IMG/VR virus record: IMGVR_UViG_3300048576_000618
Span: 1-35,432 of that record
Origin: a virus
Lineage: Duplodnaviria > Caudoviricetes
Direction: 5' to 3' (one strand)
Length of the DNA: 35,432 nt
Shown: positions 15,743-24,369 of the stretch, piece after piece
How the letters are laid out: every line of letters begins with the position of its first letter
How positions within the stretch are numbered: position 1 is the first letter of the stretch
Position numbers and translations under genes: made by a program
Notes under the pieces: model-generated
Database searches by the model: none
What the model saw: only the letters and a program-made list of their open reading frames with translations
Told to the model about the DNA's origin: nothing

Positions 15743-16459
15743 TTACAATTTTTTGCCTTCAAGATTTGCATCCGGCTTTGTCTTGTCATCCACATAAGCG
15801 GCTACCGCGGACGATATGCCATCTTTGTTTTGACCACCCATCAGCGGGCGACCGTGACCGGATAAACCTATATCGGCTATTTCCTGATTTAAACCTGTAA
15901 TGTCCGTATCGAGTCCTGTCAAGTATTCTGCAAACTTCTCGTCGTTTTCAAAGTTCATGAAACCGAAATCTTTCAGTTTTTGAGCCTTGAATTGTTCTCC
16001 TATTTTGTTCCCTTCAGGAAATACGGAGAGCTTTGATTGAAGTTGTTGAAGCCTTGTTTCGTTTACTTTTTGACCTTCAAAAGCAGAAAGTTTTTGCTGC
16101 AATGGTTCTACCGCTGTTTTTACAGCGTTAGCAACGATAGTAGCAATGTCGTTTGTATCTGTTGCCTTGTTAGGGTCTGGGTCCTTGTTTGGATCCGGCT
16201 CTTTCTTTTCAACAAAATCAAACTTCTTCTTCAAGGTACCTTCGTAGGTCTTGTTTGCTTCGGACACCTCTTTGTCCACGTCTTTGCGGTAGTCTGACAC
16301 AAACTCATTCACCTTTTCAGGAGTAAGTTTTTCGACCAGTGCGCCCGCTTCTGTTTCATCTGCGGCTTGTAACGACAAGGCATTTGCCAATCGTGCCAAC
16401 CCGTCTTTTCGCACGCCTGCAAACTTTGCTACCAGTAATGCGAGAATTTTTTCTTTCAT
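15743..16459 (-). CDS. Capsid scaffolding protein
   Basis: 238 aa, charged and helical with a PDPNK repeat linker. First gene of the head operon. Confidence 0.75.
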   Translation of the reverse strand: MKEKILALLVAKFAGVRKDGLARLANALSLQAADETEAGALVEKLTPEKVNEFVSDYRKDVDKEVSEANKTYEGTLKKKFDFVEKKEPDPNKDPDPNKATDTNDIATIVANAVKTAVEPLQQKLSAFEGQKVNETRLQQLQSKLSVFPEGNKIGEQFKAQKLKDFGFMNFENDEKFAEYLTGLDTDITGLNQEIADIGLSGHGRPLMGGQNKDGISSAVAAYVDDKTKPDANLEGKKL

Positions 16460-16493
16460 GTGTTCAAAAATTTTGGTTTATAATCAAGCAGAA

Positions 16494-16520
16494 CAAAATT
16501 AACAAGTATCACTCTGATAC
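16494..16520 (-). promoter_or_regulatory. Head-operon promoter: -7 box TAATTTTG (16494-16501) with upstream operator GTATCACTCTGATAC (16506-16520)
   Basis: Matches TAnnTTTG; the operator has 1 mismatch to the palindrome. Confidence 0.7.
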
Positions 16521-16639
16521 ACTAATAATCAGCGTTTGACTTATGAAAAATTTATGCTTTCAGAATGTTACGGTGTTAAATATCTGGTAAATTAACATGA
16601 TTTAACCACTACACAGATACATATATTCAATATATGTAA

Positions 16640-16666
16640 TACTTTTGCACCGTATCACAGTGATAC
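16640..16666 (+). promoter_or_regulatory. Island promoter: -7 box TACTTTTG (16640-16647) and operator GTATCACAGTGATAC (16652-16666)
   Basis: Perfect palindrome over the expected transcription start; first ATG at 16694. Confidence 0.75.
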
Positions 16667-16693
16667 AACAAATAACATTCAAACTGATACATT

Positions 16694-16843
16694 ATGAAAC
16701 CAAAAACCTATTCAGTATCTAGAGAAAAAGCAATTAAAATAGCAATGAATCATAATTGCGTATCGCGTGAAGTGGCAGAAGAGTACACAGACTCGGAACT
16801 AAAAGAAGTTCTTAGGCACTTAAGTATTAAGGCTAATTTTTAA
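16694..16843 (+). CDS. Small hypothetical protein, 49 aa (MKPKTYSVSREKAIKIAMNHNCVSREVAEEYTDSELKEVLRHLSIKANF)
   Basis: Translated by hand (below the ORF-track cutoff). First ORF after the promoter, with an AT-rich leader. Confidence 0.65.
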   Translation: MKPKTYSVSREKAIKIAMNHNCVSREVAEEYTDSELKEVLRHLSIKANF

Positions 16844-16862
16844 TCAATAATCTTATACAATA

Positions 16863-17078
16863 ATGGCAGCAAAAGAAATCCTAACTGTTTACAACGCTTG
16901 CAAAGCCGCTACAGTGTCATGCATCAGCAATCCAGAATGGGGAACAAAGCGATTTAACTACAACGAACAGCCATTGACAGAAGGACGATTTGCAAGTACT
17001 GTTGGAATCGGTTGTAATTCAAAAGTACTGTTTGAAAGTGAATATCATTTATGGCAAATAGAAAATGGCATTATTTAA
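16863..17078 (+). CDS. Small hypothetical protein, 71 aa
   Basis: Co-oriented island ORF; its stop overlaps the next ATG (TAATG). Confidence 0.65.
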   Translation: MAAKEILTVYNACKAATVSCISNPEWGTKRFNYNEQPLTEGRFASTVGIGCNSKVLFESEYHLWQIENGII

Positions 17079-17500
17079 TGAATCCTCAATTCAAATCAAA
17101 GGGAGGATCGGTAGATAAACCCTGTTTTACTTTGATTGCCGGAATGGACAAGTCGCCAGCTTATTTGATAGAGACTTCAACCGATATTAAAAAAGTTCCT
17201 TCGTTTGTAAAAATATATTCGGATCATATTGTATATGAGATTTACGATACGGATTCGGATATAATTAAGAAGGTGAAAGAGTTCATGGCTTTATACGGAA
17301 TTATCGACATTAAAATGCGAATGCTTCGTATTCCGGAGCTGAAAAAAATAATGGGTTTCCCGGAAGATTATATTTTGATAGGCACTCAAGCAGAGCAAAA
17401 AAAATTTATCGGGAATGCGGTTGAAGTTCACATGGCTTCGGCATTAGTAAAAGCAACAGCTTTAGGATTAATAAATAAAAATAAAAGCATAGCAGTATGA
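17051..17500 (+). pseudogene. C-terminal fragment of a DNA cytosine-C5 methyltransferase (end of TRD plus motifs IX-X)
   Basis: RML.IPEL..IMGFPEDY...QKKFIGNAV corresponds to motifs IX/X. No motif I (FxGxG) or ENV motif upstream. Could be translated from ATG 17051 or 17078. Confidence 0.7.
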
Positions 17501-18966
17501 ACGGAAACATGTTCGGGATAGACCTGTATCCTACACCAAAAGAGGTCATTGAATTGATGCTAAGGAACGTAATCGTTAGCAACAAGGTAATACTTGAGCC
17601 GTCAGCGGGTACCGGCAACATCGTCGATTATTGCTATGAATACGGCGCAAAGGAAGTAATAGCTTGTGAGATCGACTCGCGTCTTCGCCGGATCCTGTCA
17701 CCAAAGTGCCACATCGTTGAAGACGACTTTATGAATCTAACGCCCGAGAAGGTGTCGCACGTGGACCTTATCGTTATGAATCCGCCTTTCAGTTCTCAGG
17801 AAAAACACGTGCTGCACGCTTGGGATATTGCACCGGCAGGCTGTCAGATCATTTCCCTGTGCAATAACTCCATGCTTGATAACCGATATTCACGGACACG
17901 TACTCAGATCATGGAGTTGGTGAATGCTTACGGCAGCTCACAGGCATTTGGAAGCTGTTTTGACACCGCGGAACGGCAAACGAATGTAGAGATCGGTTGT
18001 GTGTGGTTACATAAGCCAGGTACCGGAGAAAACGAGTTTGAAGGTTACTTCGATTTGTCGGAAGACGAACGGCGTGATATTAACGGATCCGGTATTGTGC
18101 GCTACGACTTTGTGCAGGACATTGTTTCCCGGTACGTGGAATCTGTTAGTATGTTCGACGAGGTTGACGCGGCCAATAATCGTATCAATGCAGCTATCTC
18201 CGGTGTTGTTTCTGGATTCAATATCAGATTTGGGGCTAATAAGACAGGCCGTGACAACGAATATAAGCAGATCGACAGGCAGACATTCAAAAAGGAACTT
18301 CAAAAGGCCGCTTGGAACAAACTGTTTGATCTTTTCAAAATGGACAAATACGTTACTCGTGGCGTAATGGCCGACATCAACAAGTTTGTTGAACAGCAAA
18401 CGCACGTACCATTCACTGTCAAGAATGTATACCTGATGATCCGCATGATTGTCGGAACGCATGGCAGTAGAATGGATAAAGTACTTGTTGAAGCATTCGA
18501 GAAGATATGCTCATTTTCAAAAGATAACAGCGGCGCCGGTGAAGGTTGGCGGACAAATACCGACTTCACGATAAATAAAAAATTCATTCTTCCGTATATG
18601 ACACGCATAGGTTGGTCAGGCGAATTACAGTTGAGTTATTCCAGTAGCGATAAAATGGATGACATTGTAAAAGCTTTATGTTTTCTTACTGCTATAAATT
18701 ATGATCAAGTAAAAAGATTTGATTCATTTATTTCAGACTTCAACAACGCGGTAAAGCATCCAATGAATAAGATGCAATTCGGACAATGGTATGAATGGTC
18801 ATTTTTTAGATTCAAGGGGTATAAGAAGGGTACCATGCACTTTGAGTTTATTGATGAAGACATATGGCTTCGCTTCAACCAAAAAGTAGCTGAGATTAAA
18901 GGATGGAAGAACATTTTGACACATTCAAAAAAAGCGCGCCGTCAAACAACAAGAAAAACGACTTAA
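17497..18966 (+). CDS. SAM-dependent amino (N6-adenine-type) DNA methyltransferase with a DUF4942-like C-terminal domain
   Basis: YPTP, LEPSAGTG (motif I) and MNPPF (motif IV); C-terminal F.FKGYKKGT.H..F. Confidence 0.85.
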   Translation: MNGNMFGIDLYPTPKEVIELMLRNVIVSNKVILEPSAGTGNIVDYCYEYGAKEVIACEIDSRLRRILSPKCHIVEDDFMNLTPEKVSHVDLIVMNPPFSSQEKHVLHAWDIAPAGCQIISLCNNSMLDNRYSRTRTQIMELVNAYGSSQAFGSCFDTAERQTNVEIGCVWLHKPGTGENEFEGYFDLSEDERRDINGSGIVRYDFVQDIVSRYVESVSMFDEVDAANNRINAAISGVVSGFNIRFGANKTGRDNEYKQIDRQTFKKELQKAAWNKLFDLFKMDKYVTRGVMADINKFVEQQTHVPFTVKNVYLMIRMIVGTHGSRMDKVLVEAFEKICSFSKDNSGAGEGWRTNTDFTINKKFILPYMTRIGWSGELQLSYSSSDKMDDIVKALCFLTAINYDQVKRFDSFISDFNNAVKHPMNKMQFGQWYEWSFFRFKGYKKGTMHFEFIDEDIWLRFNQKVAEIKGWKNILTHSKKARRQTTRKTT

Positions 18967-19036
18967 TTTCACAATTATTAATAATTATAAGCCTAATATT
19001 TAACTGTTTGACCGCACCATCTATTAAATATATATG

Positions 19037-19060
19037 TACTTTTGTGTATCACACTGATAC
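19037..19060 (+). promoter_or_regulatory. Promoter of the non-coding unit: -7 box TACTTTTG (19037-19044) and operator GTATCACACTGATAC (19046-19060)
   Basis: Same ATATATGTA..CTTTTG + operator architecture as the promoter at 16640. Confidence 0.75.
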
Positions 19061-19288
19061 GATAACGAATTATATCTGAAGAGAGAAATACGTACAGCGA
19101 CCGGCCAATCCGTGACGGCTAATGACCTGGTTTCGATAATCTAAAGAGAAATTTTACTAACCAAAATTTTAAGATGGGTCGCCCCCTGAAAAATAAGACT
19201 GGTTCGCTACCGTGACTGAAATGGTGCTTCCATAATAAAGTGTAATGCTGCTCTGCAAGGTGACAGTTTTCATCTTAACAGCAAGTTT

Positions 19289-19389
19289 GCCTGTTTAGCT
19301 CAACGGTAGAGCGGTAGATGCTTTTAACTTAACCATGGAACTGAGGAGTAAACATTTACAGGTCGCAAGTTCGAATCTTGCATCAGGCG
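19289..19389 (+). tRNA. tRNA-like element with expanded anticodon arm (Lys-UUU-like loop sequence CTTTTAA plus 25-nt insert)
   Basis: Acceptor GCCTGTT/ATCAGGC, D arm GCTC-AACGGTA-GAGC, variable loop AGGTC, T arm GCAAG-TTCGAAT-CTTGC. Stem GTAGATG/CATTTAC encloses 32 nt. No encoded CCA. Confidence 0.65.
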
Positions 19390-19525
19390 CATAATCCCCT
19401 GCTTTGAGGATTGAGAGGTAATAATCAGGTAAAAGCCCTCCCTATGTGCTACAGGTTATTGAGTTCAAGTCGAAATGAACAGCAAGCACAGATTGCAGAC
19501 TGACAGCCGGGAAAGACCGGCACAC

Positions 19526-19652
19526 GGAGAGATGACGAAAGTCGGATAGACGTACTATGACGATAGGTTTGTATAACAGGATATGCGTATAGGGTAGCGA
19601 GTCGGTGCAACTCCGACGAATACAAATGCCGGTTCGAATCCGGCTCTCTCCA
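19526..19652 (+). tRNA. tRNA-like element with class II (Ser/Leu-like) frame, truncated anticodon arm and ~60-nt variable arm
   Basis: Perfect acceptor GGAGAGA/TCTCTCC, D arm ACG-N13-CGT, T arm GCCGG-TTCGAAT-CCGGC. CTAT-GACG-ATAG replaces the anticodon arm. Confidence 0.65.
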
Positions 19653-19792
19653 CAAACCAAATTAGTGAACCGGTTAAAGACCGGCGGCTCTTGCAGGCCG
19701 ACAAATGTCAAAGTAGCAAGAAGGCTTTGAATCGCTAAGTGACAACATTGCTCTGTTGAGGAACTTAGTTAAAGGTTTTACAGAGAGTTTTT

Positions 19793-19824
19793 AGACCGGC
19801 GGCAATACCGTCGCCGGTCTTTTA
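19793..19824 (+). terminator. Intrinsic terminator closing the non-coding unit
   Basis: AGACCGGCGGC-AATACC-GTCGCCGGTCT followed by TTTA. Confidence 0.7.
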
Positions 19825-19836
19825 AAAGCAAGTAAT

Positions 19837-20220
19837 ATGAAGAATCTGATTATTATTGTAATAATGCTTACGTGCATATCCTGTAATAAGCATGAACCGA
19901 AAATGGATGTGATCGGAGTATGGCGTGTTACACATGTCAGTAATAACGGCAATGATTATCGTAGCGCTATGGAATATAACTGGTACCTGAATTTTTACCC
20001 GGACGGTACCTTTATATACAGTCTTCAATATGAAGATGTGAACGAATACCAAATAGGGCATTATACGATGGAACTTAACCGGATAAGCTGTGATATTCCG
20101 AAAACGCATCCGGTAACAATCGATGTATTGGATTTAAACGGCAATACAATGACGATTAAAATGCAGCAAAATACGGCTATCTCGGTGATGTATGGGATAG
20201 CTGAAAAACAGATTAAATAA
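19837..20220 (+). CDS. Lipoprotein, lipocalin-like beta-barrel
   Basis: Signal peptide MKNLIIIVIMLTCISC with lipobox Cys; IGVW and F.PDGTF motifs. Confidence 0.75.
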   Translation: MKNLIIIVIMLTCISCNKHEPKMDVIGVWRVTHVSNNGNDYRSAMEYNWYLNFYPDGTFIYSLQYEDVNEYQIGHYTMELNRISCDIPKTHPVTIDVLDLNGNTMTIKMQQNTAISVMYGIAEKQIK

Positions 20221-20231
20221 CGTTTAATGTT

Positions 20232-20363
20232 ATGAAACTAACTGATAAACAAAAGGCTCGGGTGATGCTTGCCGTAATGGCATCATGTATACTCTCTATC
20301 TGGATTATCCATATCTACGTTAAAGGATTTGATGCTTGGCTTAACTACATGATAAGTAAATGA
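20232..20363 (+). CDS. Small single-TM protein, 43 aa
   Basis: Hand-translated MKLTDKQKARVMLAVMASCILSIWIIHIYVKGFDAWLNYMISK; ATGA overlap with the next ORF. Confidence 0.55.
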   Translation: MKLTDKQKARVMLAVMASCILSIWIIHIYVKGFDAWLNYMISK

Positions 20364-20500
20364 AAAAGCACACTTTACGCCGAAAATTCAAAGCATGGAT
20401 GCTTTGGCAGGATCGTTTTTGGTCAAAGCCTGAAAACAAAGAAATGCTTACGTACATGTTTATGCATCAACAATTTGGTCAATCTGGAATTTGGCTGTAA
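20360..20500 (+). CDS. Small hypothetical protein, 46 aa
   Basis: Hand-translated MKKHTLRRKFKAWMLWQDRFWSKPENKEMLTYMFMHQQFGQSGIWL; translationally coupled to the previous ORF. Confidence 0.5.
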   Translation: MKKHTLRRKFKAWMLWQDRFWSKPENKEMLTYMFMHQQFGQSGIWL

Positions 20501-20511
20501 TAACATACAAT

Positions 20512-20766
20512 ATGGAATTTGGAAAGAAAGTGATACACGTACACATAAATGAATCTGACGAAAACAGATACTTCGGATCCATTACCGCGATGCTAAATCA
20601 AACAAACAATGGCAAAGATCTCGGTGTTACCAGAAAGGCATTATATGGATCTGGGTTTGCAACAACTGGAACATTCTCGAATGATATATGTGTAATCACA
20701 AGAGGCGAGATTGAACGGATGCCTGGCAACAGAAAGGCTCCTGTAAGGATATTGCGCGTAATTTAA
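20512..20766 (+). CDS. Hypothetical protein, 84 aa, possibly DNA-binding
   Basis: Probable start MEFGKKVIHV at 20512. YFGSITA...LGVTRKALY resembles a small HTH-like fold (weak). Confidence 0.6.
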   Translation: MEFGKKVIHVHINESDENRYFGSITAMLNQTNNGKDLGVTRKALYGSGFATTGTFSNDICVITRGEIERMPGNRKAPVRILRVI

Positions 20767-20778
20767 TAAAATCACATC

Positions 20779-21021
20779 ATGACATCTCAACAGCTCTCAA
20801 TATTTGAATCGGCTTCACCCGTAATTACTCATTCATTTCAAAGAGAAAGGGATAAGAGGGGAAGATTTAAGTATCAGGCGTCCGATCTGCTTAAGCTGAT
20901 AAAACTGTGGAAGAAACGAGCTGCCTTTTGGGAATGCAAGTACGAGGAAGAGCGAAGAAAGTGCGAGCAACTTATTAGAACAAATTCGGTTTTACAAAAA
21001 AGCATCGGAATAAATAAATAA
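20779..21021 (+). CDS. Hypothetical basic coiled-coil protein, 80 aa
   Basis: Co-oriented ORF with an RDKRGRF motif. Confidence 0.6.
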   Translation: MTSQQLSIFESASPVITHSFQRERDKRGRFKYQASDLLKLIKLWKKRAAFWECKYEEERRKCEQLIRTNSVLQKSIGINK

Positions 21022-21022
21022 T

Positions 21023-21030
21023 TATATTTG
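21023..21030 (+). promoter_or_regulatory. -7 promoter box TATATTTG, 6 nt before ATG 21037
   Basis: TAnnTTTG match in the short intergenic gap. Would give a near-leaderless transcript. Confidence 0.45.
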
Positions 21031-21036
21031 CAAAAC

Positions 21037-21543
21037 ATGGAGACACCTAAAACATTTATCACGGAAGAATACATTACCGATTATTTAAGCGATAAATCAC
21101 GTCGCTCAATCAATTCAAAGTCGCTTGTGGGTTTTAATGGAGAAACAACTAATGTTGATTCTTTGTTAGAAAGGATTTTTGGAAAAGTAAAGCTCACAAA
21201 AGAACTGGTAAGTGAAATTGAGTCTATAAAATCAACGGTTCCTGTTGTATCTTTGCTTGGAATTATAAAAAGACTACCACCGGACGTTGGTCAGATAAAC
21301 GAGACAATATCATTGCTTGAAAGGCGCATTGAAGACAAGCGAATTAATAGATCTGTAAATGCAGGTGTAAAAGAAGGCTATGAGTTGTCTATTGACATAC
21401 TGGCAAATGATGTTGAAGACATCGATAGAGAAATAAACTGCCTTAAAACTATTCAAGGCAGGGCGATTGCTTATTTGGCTATTGACTACCTTAAAGGAGA
21501 TTGCAATCAGAATATTTTGTGCGATGTACCAATAAGAAATTGA
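21037..21543 (+). CDS. Hypothetical protein, 168 aa
   Basis: Probable start METPKT at 21037; no recognised family. Confidence 0.65.
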   Translation: METPKTFITEEYITDYLSDKSRRSINSKSLVGFNGETTNVDSLLERIFGKVKLTKELVSEIESIKSTVPVVSLLGIIKRLPPDVGQINETISLLERRIEDKRINRSVNAGVKEGYELSIDILANDVEDIDREINCLKTIQGRAIAYLAIDYLKGDCNQNILCDVPIRN

Positions 21544-21545
21544 TT

Positions 21546-21743
21546 ATGGAAACGATTGACAAAGGATTTGAAAATTATAAACCATACACCTCAAAGTGTA
21601 CGATATGCACGCATTTTGATTCTATTCACTTTACATGCGTTGCTTTTCCTAATTCAATTCCATCTAAATTTTTATCAGGAACCGCCGTGCATGATAAGAT
21701 AGAAACTGGCCAAACCGGAGAAGTTACTCTTACATTGTCTTAG
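21546..21743 (+). CDS. Small Cys/His protein (CxxCxH...CxAFPxxIP...H), 65 aa
   Basis: Start METIDK at 21546. I recall this motif from small genes next to MuF-toxin genes (not verified). Converges on and overlaps the MuF stop by 14 nt. Confidence 0.7.
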   Translation: METIDKGFENYKPYTSKCTICTHFDSIHFTCVAFPNSIPSKFLSGTAVHDKIETGQTGEVTLTLS

Positions 21744-23394
21744 CTTTTGTATATTCTATGCCGTATTTGTCACACAAGCGTTTCCAAAGCACATGAAAAT
21801 GAAGTACGTTTGCCCTTTCAATATCAACCTCCTGATTTTTACTATTGCGTATTATACTTTCAAAGTACGATCTTACTTCAGAATTCATTTTCTTGTAATA
21901 TCCAACCATATCAGAAACGCTCATCCACCCCTCTTTAGGTCTTTTAATTGAAAATGTATAAAGAGGAGTTACAGCCCTCATTTCTGCCGCATTGGCACTA
22001 ATAGCGGTTGTAATATCTTCAGGACTGAATGAGCTACCTATTCGCAACAAAGAGCCTTCATCATACTTCCATCCTTTTGGATGGTTATGCGTGACTATAT
22101 TATCCTTAAAGTTGAGTAAGTCTTCACTTGAAAAAGACACAGACGTTGACCCACCCTGTTTTCTGAAAACCTCATTTCCATTCATATCAAAGGCAACCAG
22201 CGTTTCAAATTTTTTGTTTATGCGAATATCATTCTCAACAGATTTTATTTTATCGTAAACTCCAATATTACTTTTGTTTGAGTTTTCAACAGCATCCAGA
22301 TTCAAACCACCAGACAACTTCCCTCCTTTGAAATTATCCCGGATAAAGTATGGCTGTGACGTCCAGTTTTTTGATTTCTCTGTGTTTAATGCTACCCACT
22401 TTTTGAAACCGTCAGGAACGTCTGTAACTGTATTCGCAGATTGATATTTCCGGTACTCTGTACCGTATAGAGCCGCTTTCATTTCGTTCAATTCGTCCGT
22501 ATCGAATTCATCAGGATCCATCAGTATGGGTACTGCATGGCAACGGCACTGCGGGTGCCATCCTACAAACTTAAAGTCTTTTGGGTATTTACCTTTTAGC
22601 GCATCGCAAATGTCTGGGAATGGGTGGTTATTAGACAGCTTTACTTCAAATCCCGCAACAAAATCCATCTGCCGCCACCGAAGTTGATCAGATTCCCGAT
22701 AGGCCATGTTGACCTCTGATCGCGTCAATCGCATTGCGTTCTTGTAGCTGGATCTATATTTTCCTTGCCCCGGATGAAAAGCTTTAGCAGCTTTCGACAG
22801 TTGCAAGTTACCTCTTTTATCACGAACTCGACGGAAAAGCTTATCTGGATCCACAAGGAATTGGCGCAACTGTTTCGACAGATCTTGCGCAGACGTTCCT
22901 TGTCCAATTCTTACATCAATTCCGAGTTCCATTTGAGTCTTCATCTGACTGGCATAGTTCCATATCCTTTGCGAAAGATCAAGACCATTTACTTTGCGCG
23001 TTTGGAACGCGCTCAGAGCATCGAGATTGCGATCCTGCATCTTTGCCATGGTTGCTTTCTTTAGATTCGTGGTGTCGAGTATAGAAGCAATGAAGTTGTC
23101 GTTTTTATCACACGCGTAAAGCCACTGCGCCTTGACCCCATTGTTTATTACAGATTGAATGTTGTTTGCAAGACCCTGTATGATATTTTTTGCCTGCGCA
23201 TTGGCCTGTGGATAGTCTGAAAATGAGAAAGCCTTTGACGGGTCTATGTTCAATCGTATGGCAGCACGAGAAAAGTCATCGACTGCAGACTGATACAGCA
23301 TGTCGATGGCCTGTGCATACGATTCTGTCAATTTATAGCTATTGACATCATATCCCTGAAACGAAAAACCCGTTTTTTTTGGCTTCTGAGGCAT
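21730..23394 (-). CDS. MuF / SPP1 gp7-like minor head protein with a C-terminal JAB/MPN-like extension
   Basis: RL.RSE.N.AY, CD.L.G.YPKDFKF.GWHPQCRC (MuF). C-terminal E...THNHP...SFS.ED. Probable start MPQKPKK at 23394. Confidence 0.85.
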   Translation of the reverse strand: MPQKPKKTGFSFQGYDVNSYKLTESYAQAIDMLYQSAVDDFSRAAIRLNIDPSKAFSFSDYPQANAQAKNIIQGLANNIQSVINNGVKAQWLYACDKNDNFIASILDTTNLKKATMAKMQDRNLDALSAFQTRKVNGLDLSQRIWNYASQMKTQMELGIDVRIGQGTSAQDLSKQLRQFLVDPDKLFRRVRDKRGNLQLSKAAKAFHPGQGKYRSSYKNAMRLTRSEVNMAYRESDQLRWRQMDFVAGFEVKLSNNHPFPDICDALKGKYPKDFKFVGWHPQCRCHAVPILMDPDEFDTDELNEMKAALYGTEYRKYQSANTVTDVPDGFKKWVALNTEKSKNWTSQPYFIRDNFKGGKLSGGLNLDAVENSNKSNIGVYDKIKSVENDIRINKKFETLVAFDMNGNEVFRKQGGSTSVSFSSEDLLNFKDNIVTHNHPKGWKYDEGSLLRIGSSFSPEDITTAISANAAEMRAVTPLYTFSIKRPKEGWMSVSDMVGYYKKMNSEVRSYFESIIRNSKNQEVDIERANVLHFHVLWKRLCDKYGIEYTKAKTM

Positions 23395-23580: not shown

Positions 23581-23961
23581 TTACAGCGTCTTTGACATCC
23601 ACACTAAGTTGTTATCGTTGTCATCTTCTCGCAAGTATTCATACCCACGACGTTTGTACCAATCATGCATCCAAGATCCTTTTTCTACTTGTAAACTGGA
23701 TACGGATGCGCCTAATTTTCTGCCTATTTCTTCACGTATTTCCTGCAATTCGGTGCCTATGCCTTTTTTTCTTGAAGATTCGGATACGCTTAACCAGTTT
23801 AGATTAATAGTAGACTTGTCGTCGTGATACCAATACGCATGAGCAAATGCAAACCCATGTTTTTCCATTATTAGGATTTCATCTCCCCATGAATTTGTGG
23901 AGTAATGGGATATATACTTACATGGCACTTGCTGTAATATTAAATTAATATCTATTATCAT
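23581..23961 (-). CDS. GNAT-family acetyltransferase
   Basis: LSV.E.SRKKGIGTEL (acetyl-CoA motif A) and WYKRRGY (motif B). Confidence 0.85.
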   Translation of the reverse strand: MIIDINLILQQVPCKYISHYSTNSWGDEILIMEKHGFAFAHAYWYHDDKSTINLNWLSVSESSRKKGIGTELQEIREEIGRKLGASVSSLQVEKGSWMHDWYKRRGYEYLREDDNDNNLVWMSKTL

Positions 23962-24308: not shown

Positions 24309-24369
24309 GATGTATATATTTATATATGTGCCTACTCTATTAAAGGTTTTCGGCATCCCCTATTGTATT

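What the first reader, a model, noticed from the sequence alone, without database searches (positions are those of the whole stretch)
19050..19824. Operator-controlled ~770-nt structured non-coding RNA unit built around two aberrant tRNA mimics
Seen: in an otherwise gene-dense phage this interval has no long plus-strand ORF, yet has its own -7 promoter (19037), operator (19046) and terminator (19793-19824). It is tiled with complementary stems: TTAAGATG/CATCTTAA, two cloverleaf-like domains, AATCC/GGATT, TGTGCT/AGCACA with GTTCA/TGAAC, GCCGG-GAAAGA-CCGGC, TCTTGC/GCAAGA, and GCTAAGT/ACTTAGT with CAACA/TGTTG. Known: large ornate phage ncRNAs (GOLLD, ROOL) occur near or around tRNAs, and phage tRNAs can counter anticodon-nuclease defences. 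Inference: this is either one large ornate RNA or a precursor cut at the tRNA-like units into several small RNAs, possibly an RNA-based counter-defence or host-control module. I could not assign it to a known family by eye.
Basis: partly seen in the sequence, partly recalled or inferred. Interest (0 to 1): 0.88.

Follow-up and report, generated by a model that had tools for sequence, protein, structure and literature searches.

The report
Phage RNA-only operon of tRNA look-alikes
A virus of Bacteroidota bacteria carries a protein-free stretch holding two oversized tRNA-shaped sequences with no usable anticodon, behind the same DNA control motif as its virion genes; it is likely transcribed during lytic growth and likely cut by host tRNA-processing enzymes into small look-alike RNAs that may act as decoys, but it is known from this one phage only.

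Summary
The interval is a real non-coding unit, but the evidence favours a string of modules, not one ornate RNA. Confirmed: a TAnnTTTG box (19037), a 15-bp palindrome present five times, each time next to such a box, three of them ahead of virion genes, two tRNA frames (19289-19389, Rfam 50.8 bits; 19526-19652) and a terminal hairpin. Neither frame has a canonical anticodon loop. New: frame 2 follows, at 3 nt, a 22-nt GAAAGA hairpin. Its 21-nt core recurs letter-perfect in about 1000 viral stretches, variant stems keep pairing, and it sits 2-6 nt before a tRNA frame in 28 of 106 contexts. No GOLLD, ROOL or ribozyme hit and no homologue of the unit was found, so covariation of the inserts is untested. 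Closest known: phage T5 RNA1/RNA2 and T4 species 1/2 stable RNAs; it is not a member of the T5 RNA1 family. Likely mechanism: lytic derepression, RNase P and CCA processing, non-decoding tRNA mimics; decoy function inferred only.

The parts
19037..19044 (+). TAnnTTTG box (Bacteroidota -7 promoter consensus, recalled); predicted start of transcription about 19049-19052
19046..19060 (.). Palindrome GTATCA-N3-TGATAC over the predicted start site; likely repressor operator
   Evidence: 5 exact copies, all within 25 nt of a TAnnTTTG box; 5% of positions are that close to a box; related palindromes in 33 of 80 kin loci
19061..19288 (+). 5' leader without supported fold; holds a 13-codon ATG frame (19174-19215) and a possible deleted copy of the GAAAGA hairpin (19094-19105)
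   Evidence: z +1.1 and -0.2; stems at chance level
19289..19389 (+). tRNA-like 1 (101 nt): class I frame, acceptor 6/7 (U6.U67) with Thr-like first pairs, G73; anticodon arm extended to a 7-bp stem plus internal loop and 4-bp hairpin; no canonical anticodon loop
   Evidence: Rfam RF00005 50.8 bits; fold; host tRNA comparison
19390..19500 (+). Spacer without supported fold
   Evidence: z +0.7
19501..19522 (+). Pan-phage GAAAGA hairpin, 3 nt before tRNA-like 2
   Evidence: 21-mer exact in about 1000 viral stretches; flanks unconserved; tRNA frame 2-6 nt downstream in 28 of 106 contexts, 0 of 2380 shuffles; 6 of 8 variant stems keep 4/4 pairs
19526..19652 (+). tRNA-like 2 (127 nt): Ser-type acceptor 7/7 with A73, Leu-type D loop and T arm, A15:U48; insert of about 73 nt with a second T-loop arm
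   Evidence: sequence
19601..19617 (+). Second T arm (5-bp stem, UGCAACU loop) inside tRNA-like 2
   Evidence: pair probability 0.94
19653..19792 (+). 3' tail, weakly structured; hairpin 19670-19684 resembles the GAAAGA motif; 11-mer at 19678 repeats the terminator 5' arm
   Evidence: z -2.2; repeats
19793..19823 (+). Terminal GC-rich hairpin with short U tract; likely leaky intrinsic terminator
   Evidence: z -6.0; kept in a relative whose upstream sequence differs (run X2)
16506..16520 (.). Operator copy ahead of the putative scaffold and capsid genes (others: 6759, 16652, 25886)
17497..18966 (+). Upstream neighbour: N6 methyltransferase-DUF4942 protein (context)
19837..20220 (+). Downstream neighbour: lipocalin-like lipoprotein, 13 nt after the hairpin (context)

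Best explanation
This is an RNA-only accessory unit of a likely temperate Bacteroidota siphovirus: a promoter box and palindrome shared with virion genes would switch it on in lytic growth, and host RNase P and CCA-adding enzyme would likely cut the ~770-nt transcript into two non-decoding tRNA look-alikes that probably act as decoys for tRNA-binding host proteins. Shown: box, palindrome, two tRNA frames without canonical anticodon loop, the conserved hairpin at 3 nt before frame 2, terminal hairpin. Inferred: (1) a repressor blocks all palindrome-bearing promoters in the lysogen (about 0.7); (2) RNase P cuts at 19289 and 19526, 3' ends are trimmed and CCA is added, and the GAAAGA hairpin marks or protects the leader of frame 2 (about 0.7); (3) the products keep elbow and acceptor, are read by enzymes that recognise tRNA shape, and cannot decode; frame 2 may be leucylated; (4) their use is to titrate tRNA-cleaving defence nucleases or other tRNA-binding factors late in infection (about 0.3).
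For: Palindrome: 5 of 5 copies beside a TAnnTTTG box, three ahead of portal, putative scaffold/capsid and tail genes; conserved in 33 of 80 kin loci. Frames: Rfam 50.8 bits; frame 2 acceptor and T-stem probabilities 1.0 and 0.99. Frame 2 has A10-U25 where host tRNA-Leu has G10-C25, and A73 plus A15:U48, which PMC9976931 lists as bacterial Leu identity elements (passages). A 7-bp acceptor stem is a major RNase P determinant and a tRNA-like Y RNA module is cut and CCA-tailed in vivo (PMC4201824, passages). Most host-type tRNAs listed lack encoded CCA too. Hairpin spacing equals the mode seen before real tRNAs (offset 3-4 in 21 of 28), and 7 other oversized frames follow the same hairpin. Linkers show no excess structure. 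Precedent: T5 RNA1/RNA2 annotated tRNA-like stable RNAs with stable spacer RNAs. Neighbours are DNA methyltransferase-type genes.
Against: No homologue of the inserts or linkers in any search (71/72, 79, 98-101), so selection on them is unshown. Frame 1 has an acceptor mismatch, whereas 87 of 98 long frames are 7/7, and its acceptor does not form in the full-length ensemble. Frame 2 has a 3-nt beta region and one extra D-loop base, so leucylation is uncertain. The known phage counter to tRNA nucleases is a cleavage-resistant functional tRNA, not a decoy; the word decoy does not occur in PMC11464382 (passages), and AriB there reads the anticodon stem-loop, which these RNAs lack. No repressor or integrase gene was recognised in the contig.
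Confidence: 0.5

Rival explanations
1. Decaying remnant of a captured tRNA cluster: the frames and hairpin copies are relics and the RNAs have no function now.
For: Single instance; none of 80 viral and 28 genome kin loci carries the unit; U6.U67 mismatch; apparent deleted hairpin copy at 19094-19105; a relative has another sequence before the same terminal hairpin (run X2).
Against: Frame 2 acceptor, both T arms, hairpin, operator and terminator are perfect; inserts of 29 and about 40-50 extra nt sit where they leave the frame intact; oversized frames are a common phage design (98 long frames; about 1500 stretches estimated).
Confidence: 0.2
2. One large ornate RNA (GOLLD/ROOL-like) with embedded tRNA domains that works uncut, perhaps as an RNA cage.
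For: Length about 770 nt, phage, next to tRNA-like units, likely lytic expression, as described for GOLLD and ROOL (passages); excess of 7-bp stems over the whole interval; GACCGGC four times, only here on the + strand, allowing long-range pairs.
Against: No Rfam hit at E up to 10; leader and spacer z near or above 0; centroid fold leaves most linker bases unpaired; no conserved core found elsewhere.
Confidence: 0.12
3. Frame 2 is charged with leucine and serves as a non-ribosomal aminoacyl carrier or synthetase sink rather than as a nuclease decoy.
For: A73, A15:U48, G18G19 and a long variable region; the anticodon arm is dispensable for bacterial leucylation (PMC9976931 passages).
Against: Ser-type acceptor and altered D-loop lengths; no recognised aminoacyl-transfer enzyme in the contig, apart from an unassigned GNAT gene at 23581-23961.
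Confidence: 0.12
4. The stretch is mainly a long 5' leader or attenuator that sets read-through into the lipoprotein operon at 19837.
For: Gene starts 13 nt after the hairpin, with no TAnnTTTG box in between; short U tract; upstream 10-11-mers at 19512 and 19676 are fully complementary to the hairpin's 3' arm.
Against: The competing segments copy the 5' arm and are themselves in hairpins; a relative keeps hairpin and gene with another upstream sequence; two complete tRNA frames are not needed for this.
Confidence: 0.08
5. The inserts are introns whose removal gives working tRNAs, for example tRNA-Lys(UUU) from frame 1.
For: CUUUUAA follows the 7-nt 5' stem strand of frame 1 (19321-19327); other phage tRNAs carry anticodon inserts.
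Against: Removing 25 nt would leave a 7-bp anticodon stem; no cut gives a 5-bp stem with U33 and a purine at 37 (from the sequence); G73 and Thr-like acceptor do not fit Lys (A73); no ligase recognised.
Confidence: 0.04

Closest known systems
Phage T5 RNA1 and RNA2 (GenBank AY543070, 30501-30644 and 32959-33083; annotated tRNA-like stable RNA with unknown functions)
   Same: RNA1 has a Leu-type D arm, an extended anticodon arm, a variable arm and a T arm in 144 nt, the plan of fold A of frame 2; RNA2 holds a second T loop; stable spacer RNAs lie between tRNAs.
   Different: Invariant loops of the RNA1 family are absent; model score 16.6 bits against 150.9 for a member and up to 39.1 for ordinary host class II tRNAs. 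The T5 RNAs sit in a large cluster of working tRNAs of a lytic phage; here there is no canonical tRNA and the unit has its own operator.
Phage T4 rnaC and rnaD (species 1 and 2 RNAs, AF158101)
   Same: 119-139-nt stable RNAs in a tRNA operon; rnaC ends in a T arm.
   Different: No D-arm frame like the window's in the folds; part of a canonical tRNA cluster.
GOLLD (RF02032) and ROOL (RF03087) RNAs (accession numbers from earlier scan notes)
   Same: Size class, phage setting, tRNA neighbourhood, lytic expression reported for GOLLD.
   Different: No model hit; no evidence of multistem junctions or pseudoknots in the linkers.
Bacterial Y RNAs (YrlA; PMC4201824)
   Same: tRNA-mimicking module that RNase P and CCA-adding enzyme can process (passages).
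   Different: No Ro60/TROVE gene recognised in the contig; no Rfam hit; arms in normal tRNA order.
Phage tRNAs that defeat tRNA-nuclease defences (T5 tRNA-Lys against PARIS; PMC11464382)
   Same: Phage tRNA-shaped RNA expressed in infection.
   Different: That mechanism needs a decoding tRNA; these RNAs have no canonical anticodon loop.

Membership tests
Canonical tRNA (RF00005) | Acceptor, D and T arms with conserved elbow bases | tested here: met
   Frame 1 50.8 bits; frame 2 by fold and comparison, not by the Rfam model
Canonical tRNA (RF00005) | 5-bp anticodon stem with 7-nt loop, U33, purine 37 | tested here: not met
   35-nt loop region in frame 1; neither fold of frame 2 gives a 7-nt loop; ARAGORN 0 genes
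T5 RNA1 family | Leu-type frame with extended anticodon arm and variable arm | tested here: inconclusive
   Fold A fits, fold B is within 0.9 kcal/mol
T5 RNA1 family | Invariant apical and variable-arm loop sequences; model score above ordinary tRNAs | tested here: not met
   Alignments of 9 of 487 records; 16.6 bits
GOLLD / ROOL | Covariance-model match | tested here: not met
GOLLD / ROOL | Covarying multistem and pseudoknot core | not testable with these tools
   No homologues; linker stems at chance level
tmRNA | G3.U70 tRNA-like domain and tag frame | tested here: not met
   Only the T arm matches, 9-11.7 bits; A3-U70 and C3-G70 in the two frames; ARAGORN 0
Y RNA (YrlA) | Adjacent Ro60 gene and model match | tested here: not met
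   contig is incomplete
HDV-like / theta ribozyme (features recalled) | Nested double pseudoknot starting at the tRNA 3' end | tested here: inconclusive
   Own descriptor found 0 sites but had no positive control; no Rfam ribozyme hit
Pan-phage GAAAGA hairpin (uncatalogued; earlier scan notes) | TGACAG leader, paired stem, GAAAGA loop, few nt before a tRNA frame | tested here: met
ACAGCAA stem motif of phage tRNA arrays (uncatalogued) | Conserved stem strand 5' of ACAGCAA | tested here: not met
   Window copies score -7.1 and -9.0; family median 7.1, background median -8.5

The most novel reading that the evidence does not exclude
A small temperate phage carries a dedicated, repressor-controlled RNA-only anti-defence operon: two processed tRNA mimics, one with a second T-loop elbow, that soak up tRNA-cleaving defence nucleases or other elbow-binding host factors during virion assembly, with the pan-phage GAAAGA hairpin as a processing signal. 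That would be a decoy-RNA counter-defence distinct from cleavage-resistant replacement tRNAs, and a minimal system in which to test the long-unexplained T4/T5 tRNA-like stable RNAs.
Probability: 0.2. Interest if true: 0.8.

Novelty: new variant of a known kind. Interest (0 to 1): 0.43.

Why it matters
Phage tRNA-like stable RNAs have been annotated in T4 and T5 with unknown function, buried among working tRNAs. Here two of them form a self-contained unit with promoter, operator and terminator and no canonical tRNA, so the unit can be cloned whole and tested. It also shows the uncatalogued GAAAGA hairpin again at the leader position of an oversized tRNA frame. The weight is limited because the unit is known from one contig and nothing shows expression or selection on the inserts.

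Tried and rejected
Homologue searches, all without a homologue of the unit:
- blastn of annotated phages (only the hairpin, 2 records; none) and plasmids (none).
- Exact patterns in viral contigs (0) and metagenomes (0).
- Architecture patterns: tandem T loops (54 loci; 11; 26), none alike in the insert.
- 80 of 113 viral kin loci, 2 DUF4942 loci, 28 genome loci; Rfam on 8 of these kin loci gave 0 hits.
- Whole genomes: 5, 401 twice, 401, 64; hits were ordinary tRNA arms, the hairpin and one isolated 29-nt match (two weak T-arm-region hits were not opened).
- The downstream lipoprotein has no relative either.

Sequencing runs: no RNA holder listed. In run X1, kin contigs touch 25 of 30 bins of 16400-21800 and none in 19115-19657; a hole proves nothing. 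A closer look at these runs over the unit is open.

Rejected readings:
- ACAGCAA family membership.
- T5 RNA1 membership; the shared ATAGGTTT is not conserved in that family.
- L144 as a homologue; only the 5' arm is shared.
- Hidden protein gene.
- Antisense targets; only 12-14-nt matches.
- Relaxed ARAGORN gave noise. The first relaxed hairpin regex missed the window's own copy and was not used. The frame identity scores were out of register by one base; only the listed sequences were used.

Paper searches with 0 hits. Searches listed papers, none on such a unit by title or abstract start.

Full report
Setting. The window is the whole record G000. Pfam and PHROG scans of 45 ORFs give terminase, SPP1-type portal, major capsid E, BACON-bearing tail tube, tape measure, holin-like and muramidase genes on the minus strand. 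Relatives of the gene at 15743-16459 (putative scaffold, by position) lie mostly in Bacteroidota genome contigs, so a temperate Bacteroidota siphovirus is inferred. No repressor or integrase was recognised and the contig is incomplete. A plus-strand accessory block (16863-21743) interrupts the head genes: a C5 methyltransferase fragment, an N6 methyltransferase-DUF4942 gene, the non-coding gap, a lipocalin-like lipoprotein and small unknown ORFs. In kin this block has other content.

Control signals. GTATCA-N3-TGATAC occurs exactly five times (6759, 16506, 16652, 19046, 25886). Each copy is within 25 nt of a TAnnTTTG box, the Bacteroidota -7 consensus (recalled), while 5% of positions are that near a box (AT-rich intergenic bias is not corrected). 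Four copies lie just downstream of the box, over the predicted start site, which suits a repressor; one lies just upstream. Three copies head portal, putative scaffold/capsid and tail genes. Related palindromes with half-site variation occur in 33 of 80 kin loci, often about 60 nt before the same gene. The RNA unit therefore likely shares the regulation of the virion genes. The terminal hairpin is strong (z -6.0) but has a short U tract. A contig of run X2 keeps it and the start of the next gene with a different upstream sequence, and a contig of run X3 matches 18936-19101 with 3 differences.

tRNA-like 1 (19289-19389). Rfam RF00005 scores 50.8 bits with 35 unmatched bases in the anticodon loop; ARAGORN finds nothing. 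D arm, short variable loop and T arm are normal. The acceptor is 6/7, its first pairs resemble host-type tRNA-Thr, and the discriminator is G. The anticodon arm folds as a 7-bp stem, an internal loop and a 4-bp hairpin with a 10-nt loop. A Lys-like CUUUUAA follows the 5' stem strand, but no excision yields a canonical arm. A generic pattern for such enlarged frames matches an estimated 1500 viral stretches (6 of 64 parts scanned, 121 loci). Among all loci then held, 98 long frames have an intact T arm and acceptor; 87 are 7/7 and 10 share A15:C48. The design is common; this sequence is not.

tRNA-like 2 (19526-19652). The acceptor equals host-type tRNA-Ser(UGA) but with A73. The D loop and T arm resemble tRNA-Leu, with A10-U25 in place of G10-C25 and A15:U48. 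PMC9976931 (passages) gives A73, A15-U48, G18G19, A20a and a long variable region as bacterial Leu identity and G73 for Ser, so leucylation is possible but unproven. The insert holds a second T arm (19601-19617, pair probability 0.94). Two folds differ by 0.9 kcal/mol: a long anticodon arm with the T loop capping the variable arm, or a 4-bp arm plus a 7-bp closed domain. Neither has an anticodon loop.

The hairpin. The 21-mer at 19502-19522 gave the only blastn hit among annotated phages and matches 38 records at loose E. It occurs exactly in an estimated 1000 viral stretches (8 of 64 parts scanned, 120 loci) with unconserved flanks. It is rare in host chromosomes: 3 of 401 genomes at up to 2 mismatches. 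In 28 of 106 distinct contexts, the window and one genome locus included, a tRNA frame starts 2-6 nt later, 21 of them at 3-4 nt, against 0 of 2380 shuffles. Seven frames besides the window's exceed 100 nt. Of 8 variant stems found with a loop-only anchor, 6 keep all four pairs, against 11 of 153 unanchored controls; these variants come from few, partly related loci. Rfam has no family for it and a full-text search found no paper. Earlier scan notes describe the same hairpin; they are leads, not independent support.

Linkers. Fold z-scores are +1.1, -0.2, +0.7 and -2.2, within the range of 20 control windows. Over the whole interval 7-bp stems are in excess (9 against 3.4), partly because GACCGGC occurs four times here and nowhere else on the plus strand and cross-pairs with the T arm and terminator. 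No ribozyme, GOLLD, ROOL, tmRNA or Y RNA model matches at E up to 10 beyond T-arm fragments.

Homologues. None was found for the inserts or linkers in annotated phages, plasmids, viral contigs, metagenomes, kin loci or sampled Bacteroidota genomes (calls listed under Tried and rejected). Covariation could not be tested, and decay cannot be excluded.

Mechanism. Most likely the unit is silent in the lysogen, transcribed with the virion genes, and cut at the two frames by RNase P, with 3' trimming and CCA addition, as shown for a tRNA-like Y RNA module with a 7-bp acceptor (PMC4201824, passages). The products would look like tRNA at elbow and acceptor and could not decode. Titration of tRNA-cleaving defence enzymes or other tRNA-binding factors is my preferred use (about 0.3), given timing and the methyltransferase neighbours. 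Against it, the published counter-defence uses a functional cleavage-resistant tRNA, and AriB reads the anticodon stem-loop (PMC11464382, passages).

Comparison. T5 RNA1 and RNA2 are annotated tRNA-like stable RNAs of unknown function. RNA1 has the plan of fold A and RNA2 holds a second T loop. A model from 9 of 487 RNA1 records picks frame 2 as the best window hit (16.6 bits) but ranks most host class II tRNAs tested higher (up to 39.1 bits), so it works like, and is not a member of, that family. T4 rnaC and rnaD are similar in kind. GOLLD and ROOL share only the niche (10.1101/2024.12.08.627333 and PMC5737381, passages). PMC4810235 and PMC7609411 (passages) describe no such phage unit in the passages seen. 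No supplements were read; candidate-RNA tables there could list the hairpin.

Verdict. Real, modular, single-instance: a new variant of a known but unexplained kind. Interest 0.43.

Noticed in passing
window 6759, 16506, 16652, 19046, 25886 (2-mismatch copies 28489, 31482); kin loci L001-L076: A 15-bp palindrome sits at promoters of portal, putative scaffold/capsid and tail genes and of accessory modules across this phage clade; its binding protein is not in the contig.
   Followed up: partly
window 24329-24363 (-): Rfam DUF805b motif, 49.2 bits, just downstream of the portal gene.
   Followed up: no
window 19159-19215: A 12-mer identical to the 5' UTR of the putative scaffold gene precedes a 13-codon ATG frame; micro-ORF or gene remnant.
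   Followed up: partly
window 19099, 19515, 19679, 19794: GACCGGC four times within the unit and nowhere else on the plus strand; an 11-mer is repeated at 19678 and 19793.
   Followed up: partly
window 19074 and 19139; L144 minus strand 1113: ATCT(G/A)AAGAGA word twice in the leader, and once before a tRNA-like frame with the same 5' arm that precedes a transposase-like ORF in another phage.
   Followed up: partly
L083, L084, L110, L117, L122, L125, L143, L172, L176, L194: Repeated stem-ACAGCAA motif in phage tRNA arrays, also grafted into anticodon stems.
   Followed up: partly
L212, L221, L431, L442, L448, L459, L463: Conserved Leu-frame RNA of about 130 nt whose insert has interleaved complementary segments suggesting a pseudoknot.
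   Followed up: no
L203, L213, L215, L243, L209: Phage tRNA frames whose anticodon loop is interrupted by an insert bearing a UGCAA T-loop arm.
   Followed up: no
L311, L336, L338, L359, L381, L387: Oversized tRNA frames of 130-230 nt directly after the GAAAGA hairpin.
   Followed up: partly
T5-like phages: T5 RNA1 is conserved in 487 phage records and unannotated in nearly all of the 60 listed; apical and variable-arm loops are nearly invariant in the 9 aligned.
   Followed up: partly
run X2 loose end before window 19794: A relative has a different sequence with a small T-loop-like hairpin just before the same terminator, hinting at an alternative RNA allele in this slot.
   Followed up: no
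window 19564-19571: A second TAnnTTTG box lies inside tRNA-like 2; probably chance (35 such boxes on both strands).
   Followed up: no
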